A stretch of DNA of 64,000 nt, taken from the sequence record OQ031495; one strand, given 5' to 3'. Below, one piece after another: positions 3,272 through 49,669 of the stretch (position 1 is its first letter; each line of letters opens with the position of its first letter). Under the pieces are notes generated by a model. It was not told where the DNA came from. It searched no databases and saw only the letters and a program-made list of their open reading frames with translations. Position numbers and translations under genes: made by a program. The DNA comes from Escherichia phage MRostami-2023e.

Positions 3272-3763
3272 TTATTCCCACCAATCAAGAGCAAGAGTTA
3301 CTTCGAACGTTTCAATCTCGTTATTAGAATCCCAATCAAGAGATACTTCACCAACGTTAGTAGGCCACAAGCCGACAATTTCAACTTCTTTAGTGACCGT
3401 TTTAGCATCACGAGCAAATTGACGAACGATAGCAGACTTTTTATATTCAGCAGGTTTACCACCGGTAATTTCATTACCTTGTCCTGCTGCAATACCTTGC
3501 CAATCAACAAATTTCTGACGAATGCTATGAGCATCATCGTTCATTACTGTAATAGTCCAATCGTCGAATGTACGATCACCAGCCACGTTAATTTTACGGT
3601 TCATATAAGAAACAGGAACCTTTTCAACTATCGCAGCAGGAAGAGCCGTAGCACGACACTGGAAGCTAAAGTTTTGCCCAAGATAAGAGATTTCTACTTC
3701 GAACAGGTTAGGGCGAGCGAAATCACCAGATTCGAAGGCACGAGTTACGTCATCTACAAACAT
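3272..3763 (-). CDS. 19: Tail tube protein gp19
   Basis: 163 aa (T4 gp19 163 aa); between sheath and portal genes. Confidence 0.9.
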   Translation of the reverse strand: MFVDDVTRAFESGDFARPNLFEVEISYLGQNFSFQCRATALPAAIVEKVPVSYMNRKINVAGDRTFDDWTITVMNDDAHSIRQKFVDWQGIAAGQGNEITGGKPAEYKKSAIVRQFARDAKTVTKEVEIVGLWPTNVGEVSLDWDSNNEIETFEVTLALDWWE

Positions 3764-3835
3764 ATTAGCCTCTGTAGTAATATGGGCCTAGGATTAACCG
3801 GATGCCCATAGAATTAATTTTTAAACGATATAGTA

Positions 3836-3843
3836 TATTTATA
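3836..3843 (-). promoter_or_regulatory. Late promoter (TATAAATA) for gene 19
   Basis: tatttata on + strand in the 18-19 intergenic region. Confidence 0.6.
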
Positions 3844-3875
3844 TGGGCTACCGAAATAGCCCATCAGGCGTCTTA

Positions 3876-5858
3876 TTAACCACCTACAGCACCAATTAGT
3901 TCGTCGAAATCGGCACCAGTTGCTGTTGCTACAAAGTTCAATGTAATATAATTTATCGAGCGGGCAGGTTGTAAGTAGAAAGTAGCTACAAATTCATTAC
4001 GGTCGATAACTGCTGGGGTGTTATTGGTAGTATCACAAACAACTTTAAAGTTATATACACCACCGAGAGCTTTAATACCCTGTAGATATTGAGAAGTCTC
4101 TGTACGGAAAGAAGAACGGGTAAATGCGTTGTTCAATTCAAACAGGCGATATTTAGATGCTGAACCAATGTTCGTTTTAACCATATTGAACAAACGACGA
4201 ACGTTAATACGGTCAAATGGTGAAGGAACAGAAGTGGCAGTTTTATCACCGTACAGAACATACCCATCACCACCGGTACCAGTAACAGGGTTAATAGCTT
4301 CCTGATACAAACGATCACGTTGTGCTTGGCGAGTTTCAATTGCAAGCTTAATAACGTTAAGAATTTGTCCACGGTTATAACCGGCTGGAGACATCCAAGG
4401 CTGAGAAATATTGTCTGTACGAGCACAAAGTCCAGCGATATCAGCGGCTAATGGAACCCAACGATTCACATCATTATATTTGTCATATTGATATTTATAG
4501 TTACCGTCAATAGCGGCATAAGTAGAACTTACATTAAAGTTATTATCGGTGTAAGTTCCTGACGCAGTACGCCAATCAACCAGATTATCAACTGCACGAT
4601 TAACAGGAATACCGACTATAGTTGCACGTGGCGGTGAGCAAAGAACCAAGCAATCTTGACGAGAATCACCAATTGCTACAACATGTTTCTGAACTGTAGA
4701 AGCAACTTCTAAAGATTCACCTGCACAAGAACCGGCAATAAACAACTGCGCATTAACAGATTCACGGTCAGCAAACAAATCCCAAGCTTCCATTAAATCA
4801 CCAGCGTCAACCGTTTCATTAGATGATAAGCCACCACCCAGTTTGATTACGCCAGAGAAACCTTTTGGCCAACCTTGTGCAGTAGCGAAAATATAATTGC
4901 TTGCGCCTTTAGCAAAGAAATCATCAATAAAGATATTACTACCATAAATATCGCGTTCACCACGTTTAGTAGAAAGAACTACGCTCTGAACTACAGCATC
5001 GTTACGACGAACGATAATTGCATATTGGTCATCAGTTTGTGGGCCATACCCAAAGATTGCTTTAGCAGTAGATGCACGAGTACCACCATCAGGATAAATT
5101 TTTAACTGGGCTGAAGCACCTTTGTCATAGTCTGCTTTAGATACGATTTCAATTTCGAGCTGGTCGCCAAGTTCACCAGGATAAAGAGCAACTACGCCTG
5201 GGACACCATATTTTTTAATAGATTCTTGGAAAGTTAGAGAAGTAATAGCTTCTTCAGAAGTTTCAACTTCAGTTAACAGAATACCCGAATCGGTTACGAT
5301 AGAACCAATTGTAATAACGCCAGAGAGACCAGAAGAAGAACTGGCAACTTCGGCGGTCCAGTTAGAACCCAATGCCGGATATTCATTAATTTCTTTTGCA
5401 CGAGCAATAATTTTACCGGTTGGGATATAAATGTTAAGAATTTTACCATCGACATCAACTGAAGTGACATAACCATCTGCTTCAACAGTTTCGGTCAAAT
5501 ACTTAACGATAATTTTATCACCAACTGCATAGTTACTACCAGTAGCAGAGATTGTGAATTCAATATTGCCTGCTACAGGAGATGAGTTCTTAGCAGTATC
5601 ACGATCAACTGCGCGTACAACACGAAGGTCATTACCATATTGAAGGAAGTTCATAGCAGACATGAAATAATCTGCTGTATCCGTATTAGGAGTACCAAAC
5701 ATATCAACTAATGCAACTTCATCAGTGATTTGTTTAATCTGGAATGCAGGTCCCCATTGGAATTTTCCAGCCAGGGCAGCAGTACCAGTGGAGTTATTAA
5801 CTACAGTACTCTGTACGGTAGTTTCTTTGAGCTCAACGCCCGGAGAGAGAAGTGACAT
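3876..5858 (-). CDS. 18: Contractile tail sheath protein gp18
   Basis: 660 aa (T4 gp18 659 aa); MSLLSPGVELKETTVQSTVVNNSTGTAALAGKFQWGPAFQ... Confidence 0.93.
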   Translation of the reverse strand: MSLLSPGVELKETTVQSTVVNNSTGTAALAGKFQWGPAFQIKQITDEVALVDMFGTPNTDTADYFMSAMNFLQYGNDLRVVRAVDRDTAKNSSPVAGNIEFTISATGSNYAVGDKIIVKYLTETVEADGYVTSVDVDGKILNIYIPTGKIIARAKEINEYPALGSNWTAEVASSSSGLSGVITIGSIVTDSGILLTEVETSEEAITSLTFQESIKKYGVPGVVALYPGELGDQLEIEIVSKADYDKGASAQLKIYPDGGTRASTAKAIFGYGPQTDDQYAIIVRRNDAVVQSVVLSTKRGERDIYGSNIFIDDFFAKGASNYIFATAQGWPKGFSGVIKLGGGLSSNETVDAGDLMEAWDLFADRESVNAQLFIAGSCAGESLEVASTVQKHVVAIGDSRQDCLVLCSPPRATIVGIPVNRAVDNLVDWRTASGTYTDNNFNVSSTYAAIDGNYKYQYDKYNDVNRWVPLAADIAGLCARTDNISQPWMSPAGYNRGQILNVIKLAIETRQAQRDRLYQEAINPVTGTGGDGYVLYGDKTATSVPSPFDRINVRRLFNMVKTNIGSASKYRLFELNNAFTRSSFRTETSQYLQGIKALGGVYNFKVVCDTTNNTPAVIDRNEFVATFYLQPARSINYITLNFVATATGADFDELIGAVGG

Positions 5859-44232: not shown

Positions 44233-44595
44233 ATGAAAGCATATCAAATTCTTGAAGGCACACACAAAGGCACTATTTATTTTGAAGACGGTACTCAAGC
44301 CCGGATTATTGTCTCTAAGACTTTTAAAGAAGACGCTATTGTAGACCCGGAAATTTTCTACGGTTTGCATGCCCGTGAAATTGAAATTGAACATCAACCT
44401 AAAGTTAAAATTGAAGGTGGTCAACATCTGAACGTTAACGTTCTGCGTCGTGAAACTCTGGAAGATGCAGTTAAGCATCCAGAAAAATATCCGCAGTTGA
44501 CCATCCGTGTATCCGGTTATGCAGTTCGCTTTAACTCTCTGACTCCGGAACAGCAGCGCGACGTTATCGCTCGTACCTTTACTGAGAGTCTATAA
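44233..44595 (+). CDS. Autonomous glycyl-radical cofactor (GrcA/YfiD-like; T4 Y06I-type)
   Basis: C-terminal half ...[60 protein letters not shown] matches E. coli GrcA as recalled, including RVSGY glycyl-radical motif. Confidence 0.9.
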
Positions 44596-44819: not shown

Positions 44820-45075
44820 AGATATTAAAGGCTACAAGCCACATACCGACGATAAAATCGGTAAAGTGAACGCTATTAAAGATGCAGAAGTCCGTCTTGG
44901 ATTGTTGTTTGATGCTCTGATTGAAGAAGCATATATCTTGAAAGAAAATGAAACAGAGCAACAAACCAAAGAAGATATGGATGCAGTACAGGCTCTTAAG
45001 TATGCTAAGCAACATCTAAAAGAAGCCAGCATGTGGGCCTGTCGTGCAGTATTTCGACCTGAGGAAAAATACTAA
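44809..45075 (+). CDS. Hypothetical protein (88 aa)
   Basis: Internal ATG of ORF 44641..45075 chosen to avoid overlap with upstream gene. Confidence 0.45.
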   Translation: MSIEDIKGYKPHTDDKIGKVNAIKDAEVRLGLLFDALIEEAYILKENETEQQTKEDMDAVQALKYAKQHLKEASMWACRAVFRPEEKY

Positions 45076-45080
45076 TGGCT

Positions 45081-45282
45081 NNNNNNNNNNNNNNNNNNNN
45101 NNNNNNNNNNNNNNNNNNNNNNNNNNNNNNNNNNNNNNNNNNNNNNNNNNNNNNNNNNNNNNNNNNNNNNNNNNNNNNNNNNNNNNNNNNNNNNNNNNNN
45201 NNNNNNNNNNNNNNNNNNNNNNNNNNNNNNNNNNNNNNNNNNNNNNNNNNNNNNNNNNNNNNNNNNNNNNNNNNNNNNNNNN
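45081..45282. other. N-masked run (202 nt); an ATG at 45075 opens a masked gene
   Basis: run of n. Confidence 1.
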
Positions 45283-45293
45283 ATCAAAGAGTA

Positions 45294-45344
45294 GTTTACT
45301 TCTCCTCTAGTTGTGTTACTATAGACCTGTCAACTAGAGGAGAA
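45294..45344 (+). promoter_or_regulatory. Early promoter cassette with perfect 14-bp inverted repeat (ttctcctctagttg / caactagaggagaa) spanning the -10 and the SD
   Basis: gtttac N17 tactat; right arm contains gaggag SD of downstream gene. Confidence 0.6.
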
Positions 45345-45350
45345 ATCAAA

Positions 45351-45809
45351 ATGACTATCAATTCAGACGTTTTTATCCGCCGTAATAAACTCCGTCGAAT
45401 CTTTGAAACGGAGTTCCGCAAAATAAATGCCAGTATAAAAGATGCTGCAAAGTCTCTTGGACTACCAGGCTTTCATATCAAGTATTCTCAACATCTCTTA
45501 GATCGTGCCATCCAGAGAGAAATAGATGAGAATTACGTTTTTGAATTATTTCGTAAAGTAAAAAATCATGTTAAAGAAGTTGCAGAATTTTTATCAATGC
45601 CGGCACGTCCAGATGTTGATGAAGATTTTGTCGAAGGCGTCGAATATCGCCCAGGCCGTTTAGAAATAACTGATGGAAATCTTTGGTTAGGACTTACAGT
45701 CTGTCGCGAAAATCCAGCATTCAAAATGAAGACTCTTCAATGCAGAATGGCTATTATTAACAGTAAACGACTACCAGGAAAAGCTTCTAAAGCCGTGATT
45801 AAAATCTAG
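45351..45809 (+). CDS. regB: RegB-like endoribonuclease (tentative)
   Basis: 152 aa (T4 RegB 153 aa); E19, H48, R52 at positions I recall as catalytic in T4 RegB; unverified. Confidence 0.5.
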   Translation: MTINSDVFIRRNKLRRIFETEFRKINASIKDAAKSLGLPGFHIKYSQHLLDRAIQREIDENYVFELFRKVKNHVKEVAEFLSMPARPDVDEDFVEGVEYRPGRLEITDGNLWLGLTVCRENPAFKMKTLQCRMAIINSKRLPGKASKAVIKI

Positions 45810-45817
45810 AGGTAAAC

Positions 45818-46360
45818 ATGAGAAAAGCACTACTCGCTGGTCTATTTGCTCTTTCATTATCAGCACATAGCTCCGAGCATACTTTTAGTAATGTCCAACT
45901 CGATAACTTGAATTATGCTTATCAGTTTGGGGAACAGTTTTCTAAGGATGGAAAATTTAAAACGCATGAAAATATGCATAAGAAAGGACTTGGATACATA
46001 ATGGCCGCAATACTATGGCAAGAATCATCTGCCGGTATTAATCTTAAAGATAAGAAAGGTCACCATGCGTATGGAATGTTCCAAAATTATCTACCAACAA
46101 TGAGGGCAAGAATTAACCAGCTTGGTTACAATATGACTGATGCCCAAATTAAGAAAATGCTATCTAAGCGGTCTAATTCAGCCAGATGGGCTTATATAGA
46201 ATTTTCTTATTGGTTAAATATACATAACGGGGATATAAGAAAAGCTATATCCTCATATAATGCGGGATGGAAGACAAGTGCTGGAAGTAAATATGCTTCT
46301 GAAGTCCTAGAAAAGGCTAATTACCTTAAATCAAATAAACTACTGGAAATAAAAGAATGA
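45818..46360 (+). CDS. Secreted protein with lytic-transglycosylase-like motif (ES...YGMFQ)
   Basis: Signal peptide MRKALLAGLFALSLSAHS; WQESSAG...AYGMFQ. Confidence 0.5.
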   Translation: MRKALLAGLFALSLSAHSSEHTFSNVQLDNLNYAYQFGEQFSKDGKFKTHENMHKKGLGYIMAAILWQESSAGINLKDKKGHHAYGMFQNYLPTMRARINQLGYNMTDAQIKKMLSKRSNSARWAYIEFSYWLNIHNGDIRKAISSYNAGWKTSAGSKYASEVLEKANYLKSNKLLEIKE

Positions 46361-46704
46361 CCAAAATGTTGGCTTTAATAGTTGGCTTGGTTTCATTTAA
46401 CGCTCTTGCTAATACTACATATACTGATGTAACGGAGTATACAAACAGAACGGCGTCTGATTATTGTGGTAAAAGTCAAGAGTGTAAAGTAGATTTTTCA
46501 CAAAAATTGTTATATGCGTATAAAGACGGAGAAAAAGATGGGGCGTCTAGTAGGTTCAAGGCGTCTACCTTAATTAAAAGATACTATAAAAAATGGCAAA
46601 TATTAGAATGCTCGGTGGCGGAACCTAAAGATAAGGCAGCATGCAATTCTATGGTGGACCGTCTAGTTGACTCTTATAATAGAGGACTTGCAGCAAGTGA
46701 TTAA
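46357..46704 (+). CDS. Secreted Cys-containing protein (115 aa)
   Basis: Signal peptide MTKMLALIVGLVSFNALA. Confidence 0.55.
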   Translation: MTKMLALIVGLVSFNALANTTYTDVTEYTNRTASDYCGKSQECKVDFSQKLLYAYKDGEKDGASSRFKASTLIKRYYKKWQILECSVAEPKDKAACNSMVDRLVDSYNRGLAASD

Positions 46705-47154
46705 AAACTATATCAAGGGCGATATTGTCGCCCTGTTTTCTAAAGGTAATAATATTGCTCATGGGTGTAATTGTTTTCATACAATGGGCGCCGGTGTAGC
46801 AGGCCAATTAGCAAAGGCTTATCCAAAAATTTTAGAAGCCGATAAACTTCAAACTGCATATGGAGACGAGTCTAAACTCGGGTCTTATTCGGTTTATGAA
46901 AAATATTTTAAGACCCATAAAGCTTATTGCTTTAATCTTTATACGCAGTTTGAGCCTGGACCTAATTTTGAGTACTCTGCTTTAATGAATTGTATAATAG
47001 AATTAAATGAATTCGGAAAGAATAAGATAACAAAGCCTGTAATTTATATGCCAAGAATTGGTGCCGGTATTGGTGGTGGAAACTGGGATGTCATCGAAGA
47101 GATTTTAGATACGTATTCCACTAAACTAGAAATTGTGATTGTTGATTGGGAACC
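46667..47154 (+). CDS. Macro-domain protein (3' end masked; start codon uncertain, possibly TTG/GTG)
   Basis: NNIAHGCNCFHTMGAGVAGQL and RIGAGIGGGNW resemble macro-domain ADP-ribose-binding loops. Confidence 0.6.
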
Positions 47155-47416
47155 NNNNNNNNNNNNNNNNNNNNNNNNNNNNNNNNNNNNNNNNNNNNNN
47201 NNNNNNNNNNNNNNNNNNNNNNNNNNNNNNNNNNNNNNNNNNNNNNNNNNNNNNNNNNNNNNNNNNNNNNNNNNNNNNNNNNNNNNNNNNNNNNNNNNNN
47301 NNNNNNNNNNNNNNNNNNNNNNNNNNNNNNNNNNNNNNNNNNNNNNNNNNNNNNNNNNNNNNNNNNNNNNNNNNNNNNNNNNNNNNNNNNNNNNNNNNNN
47401 NNNNNNNNNNNNNNNN
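47155..47416. other. N-masked run (262 nt)
   Basis: run of n. Confidence 1.
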
Positions 47417-47560
47417 ATGGACTGTTTTTTTTACTTTATGTAACGATGAAATGATATGTGATTTTGATTATTGGTGTTATTGCTATTGATACAATAAAGG
47501 ATGTACAAATCATACAGGTGAAGGTTTCTATTCCGGGTTTCAACCGTATCCAGACTTTGT

Positions 47561-47568
47561 NNNNNNNN
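47561..47568. other. N-masked run (8 nt)
   Basis: run of n. Confidence 1.
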
Positions 47569-47578
47569 GTGAACCTAA

Positions 47579-47761
47579 ATGAAATTAACTAAAGAAGAGA
47601 AAGCTAAACTGTTCGAACTTATCCATGACCTATTGGACGAGCAAGCAGCCACCAATGCGTACGATGAATATGCTCCTTTAACAGATGAAGAATATCAAGC
47701 ATTGATGGAATCATTTGACAGGAAAGAACAAGAACTCATTGACTACGTGAATTCACTATAA
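47579..47761 (+). CDS. Hypothetical acidic protein (60 aa)
   Basis: ORF track. Confidence 0.5.
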   Translation: MKLTKEEKAKLFELIHDLLDEQAATNAYDEYAPLTDEEYQALMESFDRKEQELIDYVNSL

Positions 47762-47770
47762 GGGACTCTT

Positions 47771-48352
47771 ATGGCTAGTTTAATTTTTACATATGCCGCT
47801 ATGAATGCTGGTAAGTCTGCTTCATTACTTACTGCCGCACATAACTATAAAGAACGTGGCATGGGTGTATTAGTTCTTAAACCGGCTATTGATACTCGCG
47901 ATTCAAAAGGTGAAATAGTCTCTCGTATTGGTATTCGTCAGGATGCCAATATAATTACAAAAGACATGGATATCTTTGAATTCTATAAATGGGCTGCAGC
48001 ACAAAAGGATATTCACTGTGTATTTGTTGACGAAGCTCAGTTCTTAACTACTGAAAAGGTGTATCAACTTAGTCGTATTGTTGACGTATACAATGTGCCG
48101 GTAATGGCATATGGACTACGAACAGATTTTAAAGGTAATCTATTTGAAGGTTCTCAAGCATTAATGGCTATTGCCGATAAGCTTGTTGAACTTAAAGGTG
48201 TCTGTCATTGTGGTAAAAAGGCCACAATGGTAGCTAGAGTCACGGAAGACGGACTTCCAATTACAGATGGCAGTCAAATTGAAATTGGTGATACCGATAG
48301 ATATGTGTCATTATGCCGGAAGCATTGGAATGATTTGACAGGGTTGTTATAA
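47771..48352 (+). CDS. tk: Thymidine kinase
   Basis: 193 aa (T4 Tk 193 aa); P-loop AMNAGKSASLL. Confidence 0.9.
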   Translation: MASLIFTYAAMNAGKSASLLTAAHNYKERGMGVLVLKPAIDTRDSKGEIVSRIGIRQDANIITKDMDIFEFYKWAAAQKDIHCVFVDEAQFLTTEKVYQLSRIVDVYNVPVMAYGLRTDFKGNLFEGSQALMAIADKLVELKGVCHCGKKATMVARVTEDGLPITDGSQIEIGDTDRYVSLCRKHWNDLTGLL

Positions 48353-48379
48353 ATACTAATATCTAACCAAGAGGTATAT

Positions 48380-48592
48380 ATGCAGCAATTAAACGAAAGA
48401 CAACTTCGTAATCTTACTGTAACCCAATTGGATGAAATCCGAAGAGAATTAGGACATTCTATTTCTCATTTAAACGAGGATATCCGTCAAACTGGTTCTA
48501 AAGCTGATTATACACGCAAGCGCAAGCTGGAAAAATACCTCACAGATGTTAAGGCCGTCCAAAGGCGAAAAATAAATACTGGCCAAAATTAA
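48380..48592 (+). CDS. Hypothetical protein (70 aa), between tk and rI
   Basis: SD gagg; ORF track. Confidence 0.55.
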
Positions 48593-49288: not shown

Positions 49289-49628
49289 NNNNNNNNNNNN
49301 NNNNNNNNNNNNNNNNNNNNNNNNNNNNNNNNNNNNNNNNNNNNNNNNNNNNNNNNNNNNNNNNNNNNNNNNNNNNNNNNNNNNNNNNNNNNNNNNNNNN
49401 NNNNNNNNNNNNNNNNNNNNNNNNNNNNNNNNNNNNNNNNNNNNNNNNNNNNNNNNNNNNNNNNNNNNNNNNNNNNNNNNNNNNNNNNNNNNNNNNNNNN
49501 NNNNNNNNNNNNNNNNNNNNNNNNNNNNNNNNNNNNNNNNNNNNNNNNNNNNNNNNNNNNNNNNNNNNNNNNNNNNNNNNNNNNNNNNNNNNNNNNNNNN
49601 NNNNNNNNNNNNNNNNNNNNNNNNNNNN
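49289..49628. other. N-masked run (340 nt)
   Basis: run of n. Confidence 1.
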
Positions 49629-49669
49629 CAAGTTGAAGAACTTTATCGACATTTAAAACACAATCGGTA

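What the first reader, a model, noticed from the sequence alone, without database searches (positions are those of the whole stretch)
46667..47154. Macro-domain (ADP-ribose-binding/hydrolase-like) gene upstream of tk
The product contains NNIAHGCNCFHTMGAGVAGQL and RIGAGIGGGNW, resembling macro-domain ligand-binding loops. T-even phages ADP-ribosylate host proteins, and hosts use ADP-ribosylating toxins such as DarT, so a phage macro domain could reverse ADP-ribosylation. The start codon is non-canonical or ambiguous and the 3' end is masked.
Basis: partly seen in the sequence, partly recalled or inferred. Interest (0 to 1): 0.6.

Follow-up and report, generated by a model that had tools for sequence, protein, structure and literature searches.

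The report
Phage T4 tk.4/adfM macrodomain ortholog
This is the RB69-group copy of the T4 gene tk.4 (recently renamed adfM), a small macrodomain protein that lets T4 escape the bacterial DarTG2 defence, which ADP-ribosylates DNA; the gene is real but already annotated and already assigned this role.

Summary
Both quoted motifs are present. The product passes Pfam's Macro threshold, models with very high confidence as a six-strand, five-helix macro fold, and its best solved-structure matches are TARG1, Poa1p, BT1257 and DarG. The boundaries need small corrections. The real start is GTG 46697, not TTG 46667. Only the last three codons and the stop are masked, giving 155 aa ending at about 47164. 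The gene is the syntenic ortholog of T4 tk.4: 84% identical to the T4 protein and 97% to the RB69 protein. Its A1pp/macro assignment dates from 2006, and relatives' GenBank records already say "macro domain protein". I add one detail. The family does not carry the catalytic Lys of DarG/TARG1 and instead has an invariant Gln (120 of 120 homologs), together with the His and Asn shown to matter in SCO6735, a Gln-type macrodomain proven to cleave thymidine-linked ADP-ribose. Enzymatic reversal is therefore plausible but not demonstrated for this family. Novelty: already known. Interest: low.

The parts
46697..47164 (+). tk.4/adfM ortholog coding sequence, 155 aa. 46697-47154 is readable (152 aa). 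47155-47164 (Pro-Leu-Leu-stop) is masked and inferred from relatives.
   Evidence: 84% identical to T4 Tk.4 and 97.4% to RB69 Tk.4.
46682..46686 (+). Shine-Dalgarno GAGGA, 10 nt upstream of the GTG start. It lies inside the 3' end of vs.
   Evidence: Conserved with T4 (aatcGAGGAttgagtactagATG) and JK36.
46357..46704 (+). Upstream gene vs (valyl-tRNA synthetase modifier). Its TAA stop overlaps the GTG start of tk.4 (GTGATTAA), which suggests translational coupling.
   Evidence: Same order regB-vs.1-vs-tk.4 in T4, RB69 and JK36.
46760..46795 (+). Ligand-binding loop 1: H22-G23-C24-N25-C26-F-H-T-M30-G31-A-G33. N25 aligns with DarG N22 and SCO6735 N27. H22 aligns with SCO6735 H24 and Poa1p H23.
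   Evidence: hhalign. Conservation: H 118/120, N 118/120, G33 120/120.
46841..46843 (+). D49, a family-specific invariant Asp (120/120). DarG, BT1257 and SCO6735 have Tyr at this position and TARG1 has Leu. Role unknown.
   Evidence: SCO6735 position.
46934..46948 (+). N80-L-Y82-T83-Q84 strand end. Q84 occupies the position of catalytic Lys80 of DarG, Lys84 of TARG1 and Gln85 of SCO6735.
   Evidence: Q in 120/120 homologs. SCO6735 Q85A is inactive (PMC9411070).
47051..47086 (+). Diphosphate-binding loop 2: P119-R-I-G122-A-G124-I-G126-G-G-N-W130. G122 and G124 align with SCO6735 G126 and G128. G126 sits where TARG1 has catalytic D125.
46716..46734 (+). GC-rich hairpin (8-bp stem, 3-nt loop) followed by GTTTTCT, inside codons 7-13. 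This is a side observation and may or may not belong to the gene's regulation.

Best explanation
The gene encodes the Mosigvirus (RB69-group) ortholog of T4 Tk.4/AdfM, a stand-alone 155-aa macrodomain made early in infection from the regB-vs.1-vs-tk.4-...-tk transcription unit and probably translationally coupled to vs. Its most likely job is counter-defence against DarTG2-type toxin-antitoxin systems. The host toxin DarT2 ADP-ribosylates thymidines in single-stranded phage DNA and blocks replication. The macrodomain binds the ADP-ribose adduct and hydrolyses the thymine-ribose bond, restoring replicable DNA.

What is shown here: the macro fold, orthology and synteny with T4 tk.4, and intact ligand-binding loops. 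What is shown by others, for the T4 ortholog only: loss of tk.4 sensitises T4 to DarTG2.

What is inferred: that this allele does the same, and that it acts enzymatically. The inferred chemistry is not that of DarG. The catalytic Lys is replaced by an invariant Gln (Q84), held in SCO6735 by the conserved Asn (N25 here) next to a conserved His (H22 here). This is the arrangement shown in Streptomyces SCO6735 to be required for thymidine-ADPr hydrolysis through a water-mediated mechanism.
For: Macro domain: Pfam 28.5 bits against GA 22. AF2 model pLDDT 96.7, pTM 0.91, with 6 strands and 5 helices. Foldseek top hits are TARG1 2.7e-10, Poa1p 1.2e-9, BT1257 8.4e-8, Taq DarG 8.4e-8 and Mtb DarG 1.3e-7.

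Orthology: 84% identity and 93% similarity to T4 Tk.4 without gaps, 97.4% to RB69 Tk.4, and the same gene order as in T4 and RB69.

Function of the ortholog: tk.4 was the single significant HIDEN-SEQ hit on DarTG2, and a clean knockout was sensitised. Earlier work showed that T4 lacking adfA and adfN is still DarTG2-resistant, which predicted a further factor (PMC11825919).

Plausibility of catalysis: Q84 is present in 120/120 homologs, N25 in 118/120 and H22 in 118/120. These align with SCO6735 Q85, N27 and H24. For SCO6735, Q85A and N27S abolish or nearly abolish thymidine-ADPr-DNA hydrolysis, and the protein rescues E. coli from DarT (PMC9411070). A different phage macrodomain, PhiKZ gp104, removes DarT2 ADP-ribose from DNA in vitro (PMC13309987).
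Against: No biochemistry exists for any Tk.4-family protein; the preprint itself says only that enzymatic removal 'seems likely'. The allele in this window has not been tested.

The family lacks DarG K80 and the TARG1 K84/D125 dyad. It also lacks SCO6735's DNA-contacting K34 and its longer mobile loop carrying K89, so DNA-substrate handling cannot simply be transferred from SCO6735.

Sequence similarity is at least as strong to Poa1p, an ADP-ribose-1''-phosphate phosphatase. I could not inspect model coordinates, so the clustering of H22, N25, D49 and Q84 around the distal ribose is inferred from alignments only.
Confidence: 0.72

Rival explanations
1. It is mainly a small-molecule ADP-ribose-derivative hydrolase, in line with its historical 'phosphatase' annotation. 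As a Poa1p-like enzyme it would act on ADP-ribose-1''-phosphate, O-acetyl-ADP-ribose or an immune-signalling ADPr derivative. The DarTG2 phenotype would then be a secondary or indirect effect.
For: PHROG 335 is labelled 'phosphatase', and T4 and RB69 records say 'contains A1pp phosphatase motif'. Poa1p is a top sequence and fold hit (7e-9; 1.2e-9 with TMq 0.80). The H-x-C-N-C motif and D49 are shared with Poa1p in the phmmer alignment. Iyer et al. argue that many phage macro domains prefer soluble ADPr derivatives (PMC9503650).
Against: The only phenotype known for the ortholog is specific to DarTG2, whose toxin modifies DNA. To my knowledge T-even phages have no Tpt1/KptA pathway that would generate Appr-1''-p. 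Poa1p lacks the invariant Gln.
Confidence: 0.12
2. It neutralises DarT2 mainly without catalysis, either by binding the toxin (interaction-inhibition) or by shielding modified DNA. The macro pocket would serve only as a binding module.
For: Catalytically dead SCO6735 Q85A, DarG K80A and TARG1 K84A all inhibit DarT in vitro, and SCO6735 does so most strongly (PMC9411070). The other known phage factors AdfA and AdfB act by binding DarT (PMC11825919). The Tk.4 family lacks the canonical catalytic Lys.
Against: Invariance of Q84, N25, H22, D49 and both glycine loops in 118-120 of 120 homologs spanning 36-96% identity points to a conserved active site rather than a toxin-specific interface, which would be expected to vary with the toxin. 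The protein has no counterpart of DarG's C-terminal DarT-binding domain.
Confidence: 0.1
3. It edits the phage's own ADP-ribosylation programme by removing ADP-ribose or RNA chains placed by Alt, ModA or ModB on host proteins, or it reverses RNA ADP-ribosylation by toxins such as CmdT.
For: T-even phages encode three ADP-ribosyltransferases, and the gene is early, as they are (PMC8120803). CmdTAC targets T-even phages by mRNA ADP-ribosylation (PMC11618068 abstract). SCO6735 and TARG1 also act on protein substrates.
Against: Alt and Mod modify arginine. From general knowledge, Arg-ADPr is reversed by DraG/ARH-type enzymes and not by macrodomains. No phenotype links tk.4 to these processes, and the CmdTAC paper does not mention tk.4 or any phage macrodomain.
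Confidence: 0.05

Closest known systems
T4 Tk.4 / AdfM (NP_049723.1; HIDEN-SEQ preprint 10.1101/2025.11.20.689424)
   Same: 84% identical and 93% similar over 152 residues without gaps. Same length (155 aa), same position between vs and tk.3, and the same SD and start position. All family-invariant residues are kept.
   Different: GTG start instead of ATG, and an 8-nt instead of 4-nt overlap with vs. 24-25 substitutions, for example G127 here against K127 in T4. The anti-DarTG2 phenotype has been tested only for the T4 allele.
RB69 Tk.4 (RB69p113, NP_861803.1) and Mosigvirus 'macro domain proteins' (e.g. JK36 QEG05691.1)
   Same: 96.7-97.4% identical, with the GTG start and the same neighbours upstream.
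   Different: RB69 ends ...EPK where JK36 and ECO26.1 end ...EPLL. RB69 lacks the two small ORFs that follow tk.4 in the window and in JK36.
Streptomyces coelicolor SCO6735 (PDB 5E3B) and Bacteroides BT1257 (2FG1/2AFC): Gln-type ALC1-like macrodomains
   Same: Gln at the catalytic-Lys position, plus the conserved His, Asn and two loop glycines that mutagenesis showed to matter in SCO6735. SCO6735 cleaves thymidine-ADPr DNA and neutralises DarT.
   Different: Only about 21-28% identity. The window protein lacks K34 and the 5-6-residue longer mobile loop with K89. The family has its own invariant D49 and Y82. SCO6735 is a cellular, DNA-damage-regulated protein.
DarG antitoxin macrodomain (T. aquaticus 5M31/5M3E, M. 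tuberculosis 5M3I)
   Same: Same fold (Foldseek 8e-8, TM 0.76; hhalign probability 97.8%). The conserved Asn (N22 in DarG, N25 here) and the glycine loops are shared. It counters the same toxin family.
   Different: About 20% identity. Catalytic K80 is replaced by Q84. There is no C-terminal DarT-binding domain and no adjacent darT. It scores 33 bits against the NCBIfam DarG cutoff of 250.
Chimallivirus AdfM (PhiKZ gp104; PMC13309987)
   Same: A phage-encoded stand-alone macrodomain that counters DarTG2, given the same name independently.
   Different: PhiKZ AdfM is DarG-like with N23 and K78, has demonstrated in vitro de-ADP-ribosylation, is expressed late and is imported into the phage nucleus. 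The Tk.4 family is Gln-type, early, and biochemically untested. The two look like separate recruitments of the macro fold.
Yeast Poa1p (6LFQ-6LFU) and human TARG1/OARD1 (4J5R)
   Same: Best structural matches. The H-x-C-N-C motif and D49 are shared with Poa1p. Same compact single-domain size.
   Different: Poa1p has no Gln at the equivalent position and is an Appr-1''-p phosphatase. TARG1 uses a K84/D125 dyad, which here is Q84/G126.

Membership tests
Macro domain superfamily (Pfam PF01661) | Profile score above the curated gathering threshold | tested here: met
   28.5 bits against a cutoff of 22; residues 22-136 cover profile positions 2-117 of 118.
Macro domain superfamily (Pfam PF01661) | Alpha/beta/alpha sandwich with a six-stranded mixed sheet and about five helices | tested here: met
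   AF2 model with pLDDT 96.7: strands 2-8, 20-24, 64-70, 75-82, 115-118 and 145-151, and five helices. 143 PDB matches at E<=0.001; the 50 listed are macro domains or designed proteins on a macro scaffold.
Macro domain superfamily (Pfam PF01661) | Gly-rich loop after strand 2 (GxG) and a second Gly-rich diphosphate loop | tested here: met
   M30-G31-A-G33 and G122-A-G124-I-G-G-G128, with G33 in 120/120 and G122 and G124 in 118/120 homologs.
Macro domain superfamily (Pfam PF01661) | Binds ADP-ribose | not testable with these tools
   Needs ITC, thermal shift or a co-crystal.
T4 Tk.4/AdfM orthologous group | High full-length colinear identity to T4 Tk.4 | tested here: met
   128 of 152 identical, no gaps, E 2e-102.
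T4 Tk.4/AdfM orthologous group | Conserved position regB-vs.1-vs-[tk.4]-tk.3...tk | tested here: met
T4 Tk.4/AdfM orthologous group | Required for plating on DarTG2-expressing hosts | not testable with these tools
   Shown only for T4.
DarG antitoxin (NCBIfam NF048014 equivalog; PADLOC DarG) | Score above the equivalog cutoff | tested here: not met
   33 bits against a cutoff of 250. PADLOC DarG gives 34 bits here against 252 bits for the true Taq DarG macrodomain.
DarG antitoxin (NCBIfam NF048014 equivalog; PADLOC DarG) | Catalytic Lys (Taq K80) | tested here: not met
   It aligns to Q84, which is Q in 120/120 family members.
DarG antitoxin (NCBIfam NF048014 equivalog; PADLOC DarG) | C-terminal DarT-binding domain and an adjacent darT gene | tested here: not met
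   The protein is 155 aa and matches only profile positions 4-146 of 338. Its neighbours are vs and tk.3. The one cellular homolog examined also has no DarT neighbour.
DarG antitoxin (NCBIfam NF048014 equivalog; PADLOC DarG) | Conserved Asn (Taq N22) | tested here: met
   N25.
TARG1/OARD1 | Lys84/Asp125 catalytic dyad | tested here: not met
   Q84 and G126 occupy these positions.
SCO6735/BT1257-type (Gln-type ALC1-like) macrodomain | Gln at the DarG-K80/TARG1-K84 position, locked by the conserved Asn, with the neighbouring His | tested here: met
   Q84, N25 and H22 align with SCO6735 Q85, N27 and H24 (hhalign probability 98.2%; MAFFT). The functional importance of these residues is from PMC9411070.
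SCO6735/BT1257-type (Gln-type ALC1-like) macrodomain | Extended mobile loop with Lys89, and Lys34, for DNA binding | tested here: not met
   There is a 5-residue deletion relative to SCO6735 after Q84-F-E, and A32 sits at the K34 position.
SCO6735/BT1257-type (Gln-type ALC1-like) macrodomain | Hydrolyses thymidine-linked ADP-ribose on ssDNA | not testable with these tools
   Needs a gel-shift de-ADP-ribosylation assay.
Poa1p-like ADP-ribose-1''-phosphate phosphatase | Residues probed by the deposited mutants (H23, S30, F152) | tested here: inconclusive
   H23 aligns with H22, which is conserved. S30 aligns with T29, which is variable (T in 72/120). F152 aligns with G126. The mapping rests on one phmmer alignment and on my inferred 3-residue tag offset. 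The Poa1p structure paper was not available in the library.

The most novel reading that the evidence does not exclude
The T-even Tk.4/AdfM family may not be a captured DarG antitoxin. It may be an independently recruited Gln-type macrodomain (SCO6735/BT1257/Poa1p-like, with its own invariant D49 and Y82) that uses Lys-independent, water-mediated chemistry. It could then have a broader substrate range than thymidine-ADPr DNA, such as protein, RNA or soluble ADPr derivatives, making it a general eraser of host ADP-ribosylation immunity. About 2,800 phage genomes carry a homolog. Separately, the conserved GC-rich hairpin plus U-tract at codons 7-13 could be an attenuator that sets how much adfM and downstream tk message is made.
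Probability: 0.2. Interest if true: 0.5.

Novelty: already known. Interest (0 to 1): 0.15.

Why it matters
[quoted passage not shown] For this locus the gene, its domain and its likely role are already on record, so the finding adds no new biology. The residual value is mechanistic. The family is very common in phages (homologs in 2,792 of 50,697 phage records) and carries Gln where the textbook DarG and TARG1 enzymes carry the catalytic Lys. A biochemical test would show whether Gln-type chemistry, known so far from one Streptomyces enzyme, is the main way phages undo thymidine ADP-ribosylation.

Tried and rejected
(1) TTG 46667 as the start codon. Rejected: the homologous starts in T4 (ATG), RB69 and JK36 (GTG) and the conserved SD all point to 46697.

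(2) A dedicated promoter for the gene. The sigma-70-like scan found no excess over shuffles (11 found against 12.5 expected), so I assume read-through transcription from upstream. That assumption was not tested.

(3) Filing the protein as DarG or TARG1. Rejected on the catalytic residues, the score cutoffs and the domain architecture.

(4) Identity with AdfN, the T-even anti-DarTG1 factor. Rejected: AdfN is gp30.3, a NADAR protein encoded elsewhere in the genome.

(5) Looking for a cellular homolog paired with DarT. The one contig examined (P0103, Nitrospirae MAG) has no DarT neighbour and looks phage-like. This is a single case and therefore uninformative.

(6) Checking that the DarTG2-sensitive phage T5 lacks a homolog. 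I fetched only the first 50 kb of T5 and ran no search on it, then abandoned the check as weak correlative evidence. No conclusion is drawn.

(7) LeRoux et al. 2022 (PMC9250638) on which phages DarTG2 restricts. The paper is not held in the library, so whether RB69-group phages resist DarTG2 remains uncited.

(8) Measuring distances between H22, N25, D49 and Q84 in the model. Coordinates are not exposed by the tools.

(9) Three literature calls failed on the 3-character term limit and were repeated.

Full report
WHAT IS THERE. The window around 46.2-48.4 kb reads as a T-even early-gene block. Translated ORFs match regB (within 45075-45809), vs.1 (45818-46360), vs (46357-46704), then the flagged ORF, three small ORFs, and tk (47771-48352). 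A megablast of 45800-48400 finds 116 phage records covering at least 80% of it. The best are Mosigvirus (RB69-group) phages at about 97-98% identity. In several of these records the gene under the finding is already annotated as "macro domain protein", "ADP-ribose binding module" or "phosphatase".

BOUNDARIES. The mechanical ORF begins at TTG 46667, but the annotated homolog in JK36 begins at the position equivalent to GTG 46697 and is 155 aa long. T4 has an ATG and RB69 a GTG at the same codon. A GAGGA Shine-Dalgarno lies 10 nt upstream in all of them. The GTG overlaps the TAA stop of vs (GTGATTAA), so translational coupling is likely. The mask begins at 47155. In JK36 and in the closest relative, ECO26.1 3-1, the protein ends ...VDWEPLL*, and the ECO26.1 protein is identical to the window protein over all 152 readable residues. 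Only three codons and the stop are therefore hidden.

IS IT A MACRO DOMAIN? Yes.
- Pfam Macro (PF01661) scores 28.5 bits against a gathering cutoff of 22 and covers almost the whole profile.
- PHROG 335 matches at 8.5e-66.
- Sequence search of the PDB finds BT1257 (9e-11), yeast Poa1p (7e-9), SCO6735, TARG1 and DarG.
- An AlphaFold2 model built on 54 homologs has mean pLDDT 96.7 and pTM 0.91, with six strands and five helices, which is the canonical macro layout.
- Foldseek against the PDB returns TARG1, Poa1p, BT1257 and the DarG macrodomains at probability 1.00 and TM 0.70-0.82, ahead of coronavirus and alphavirus macro domains.

WHICH GENE IS IT? It is the ortholog of T4 tk.4. tblastn labels the match "tk.4" in RB14, CC31 and Acj61. 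T4's own record lists tk.4 ("phosphatase; contains A1pp phosphatase motif") between vs and tk.3, in the same order as in the window. The proteins are 84% identical and 93% similar without gaps. RB69's tk.4 product is 97.4% identical. Homologs occur in 2,792 of 50,697 phage records, across Escherichia, Klebsiella, Salmonella, Pseudomonas, Vibrio, Acinetobacter and Aeromonas phages.

WHAT IS ALREADY KNOWN.
- Nolan et al. 2006 recorded the A1pp (macro) match for tk.4 orthologs (PMC1524935).
- Iyer et al. 2022 reported macro domains in 41% of myoviruses (PMC9503650).
- Johannesman et al. 2025 showed that T4 lacking adfA and adfN is still resistant to DarTG2 and predicted a further factor (PMC11825919).
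- The HIDEN-SEQ preprint (10.1101/2025.11.20.689424, November 2025) found tk.4 as the single significant hit on a DarTG2 host and confirmed it with a clean knockout. It noted structural similarity to M. tuberculosis DarG and renamed the gene adfM. It states only that enzymatic removal of ADP-ribose from DNA "seems likely".
- Independently, Morgan et al. 2026 gave the same name to a chimallivirus macrodomain (PhiKZ gp104). That protein keeps the DarG catalytic N and K and does remove DarT2 modifications in vitro (PMC13309987).

WHAT I ADD: THE ACTIVE SITE IS NOT DarG-LIKE. I verified the reference sequences against the PDB. My recalled TARG1 sequence matched exactly. The deposited T. aquaticus and M. 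tuberculosis DarG and the SCO6735 sequences were read from the printed alignments, and their numbering reproduces the published catalytic residues.

Profile alignments of the family (A1) give probability 97.8% against DarG, 98.2% against TARG1 and 98.2% against SCO6735. They agree on these equivalences:
- DarG N22 aligns with N25.
- DarG K80 and TARG1 K84 align with Q84.
- TARG1 D125 aligns with G126.

In a MAFFT alignment of 120 homologs (36-96% identical to the query), Q84 is invariant (120/120). So are D49, N80 and Y82. H22 and N25 are present in 118/120.

This is the pattern of SCO6735 and BT1257. For SCO6735, Gln85 sits at the Lys position, Q85A is dead, N27S is nearly dead, and His24 is adjacent. 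The enzyme cleaves thymidine-ADPr DNA faster than DarG or TARG1 and rescues E. coli from DarT (PMC9411070). SCO6735 H24, N27, Q85, G126 and G128 align with window H22, N25, Q84, G122 and G124.

There are also differences from SCO6735. The window protein lacks the DNA-contacting K34 and the 5-residue-longer mobile loop carrying K89. It has family-specific invariants D49 and Y82, and D49 and the H-x-C-N-C motif look more Poa1p-like.

Against curated DarG models it scores 33-34 bits, compared with the NCBIfam cutoff of 250 and 252 bits for a real DarG macrodomain. It matches only the macro part of those models. It is therefore a macrodomain that works against DarT2, but it is not a DarG.

MECHANISM, WITH CONFIDENCE.
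- Shown here: the fold, the orthology and an intact pocket.
- Shown by others for T4: necessity on DarTG2 hosts.
- Inferred, about 0.7: this allele does the same thing, by hydrolysing thymidine-linked ADP-ribose.
- Inferred, about 0.6: it uses SCO6735-type Gln/Asn/water chemistry.

Three rivals remain. One is small-molecule ADPr-derivative hydrolysis, matching the "phosphatase" label and the Poa1p similarity. Another is non-catalytic DarT2 inhibition; dead SCO6735, DarG and TARG1 mutants all inhibit DarT in vitro. The third is editing of the phage's own Alt/Mod modifications. The strict conservation of pocket residues across very divergent phages argues for catalysis rather than a toxin-specific interface.

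SIDE OBSERVATIONS.

(a) Hairpin inside the gene. A GC-rich hairpin (AGGGCGAT-ATT-GTCGCCCT, -13 kcal/mol) followed by GTTTTCT lies at 46716-46734, in codons 7-13.
- It is retained in T4, in teqskov (58% protein identity) and in the RB49-like phage kvi (47%). In kvi the loop differs and a G.U pair becomes A-U.
- It is lost in CC31.
- It lies in one of the two longest runs of window-T4 nucleotide identity, 26 nt in a gene that is 80.7% identical overall. Its GC content is 58% against 36% for the gene.

(b) In-frame stop in a neighbouring ORF. The 68-codon Cys-rich ORF between tk.3 and tk.2 carries a 6-nt insertion (TATTGA) in the window. This creates an in-frame TGA, and the sequence after it stays in frame and conserved. 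JK36, EP32a and ECO26.1 lack the insertion.

(c) The adjacent gene vs. The same preprint reports vs as the most depleted T4 gene in minimal medium.

VERDICT. This is a real gene, correctly read as a macro domain and correctly guessed to counter DarT-type toxins. It is already annotated, and its T4 ortholog has already been assigned that function genetically. The novelty class is "already known" and the interest is low (0.15). The remaining open point is biochemical proof and the Gln-type mechanism.

Noticed in passing
window 46716-46734 (+), with U-tract to 46741: A terminator-like GC-rich hairpin (8-bp stem, 3-nt loop, -13 kcal/mol) followed by GTTTTCT lies inside codons 7-13 of tk.4. It is conserved in T4, teqskov and the RB49-like phage kvi (47% protein identity), where the loop differs and a G.U pair becomes A-U. 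It is lost in CC31. It is 58% GC in a 36% GC gene. It could be an attenuator or an mRNA-stability element between vs and tk.4, or a by-product of the conserved KGDIVAL peptide.
   Followed up: partly
window about 47418-47582 (+); insertion at about 47482-47487: The small Cys-rich ORF between tk.3 and tk.2 (68 aa in JK36, EP32a and ECO26.1) has a 6-nt insertion, TATTGA, in the window. This gives an in-frame TGA (…DYWCYCY*YNKGCTNH…), and the downstream sequence stays in frame and conserved. This segment is also much more diverged from relatives than the flanking genes. It may be a pseudogene, a split gene or a readthrough case.
   Followed up: partly
window 46357-46704 (+): The adjacent upstream gene vs (valyl-tRNA synthetase modifier) overlaps the tk.4 start by 8 nt. 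The same HIDEN-SEQ preprint reports T4 vs as the most strongly depleted gene in M9 minimal medium compared with LB, so two neighbouring 'non-essential' early genes both have conditional phenotypes.
   Followed up: no
window 47155-47416, 47561-47568, about 45081-45287 and about 49290-49630: Runs of N mask several stretches. The first hides the last 3 codons of tk.4 and nearly all of the tk.3 ortholog. The third hides most of an ORF that JK36 annotates as a second 'RegB domain-containing protein' just upstream of regB.
   Followed up: partly
L007 (RB69 NC_004928) 3317-3960 compared with window 47155-47770: RB69 itself has tk.4 followed directly by tk.2. The window, JK36 and EP32a carry two extra small ORFs there (tk.3 and the Cys-rich ORF). 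The stretch between tk.4 and tk is therefore a variable cassette within Mosigvirus.
   Followed up: no
window 44233-44595 (+): The vs.6 ortholog ends with the glycyl-radical motif [11 protein letters not shown]69 annotates it as the autonomous glycyl radical cofactor GrcA. This is a known feature, noted only for context.
   Followed up: no
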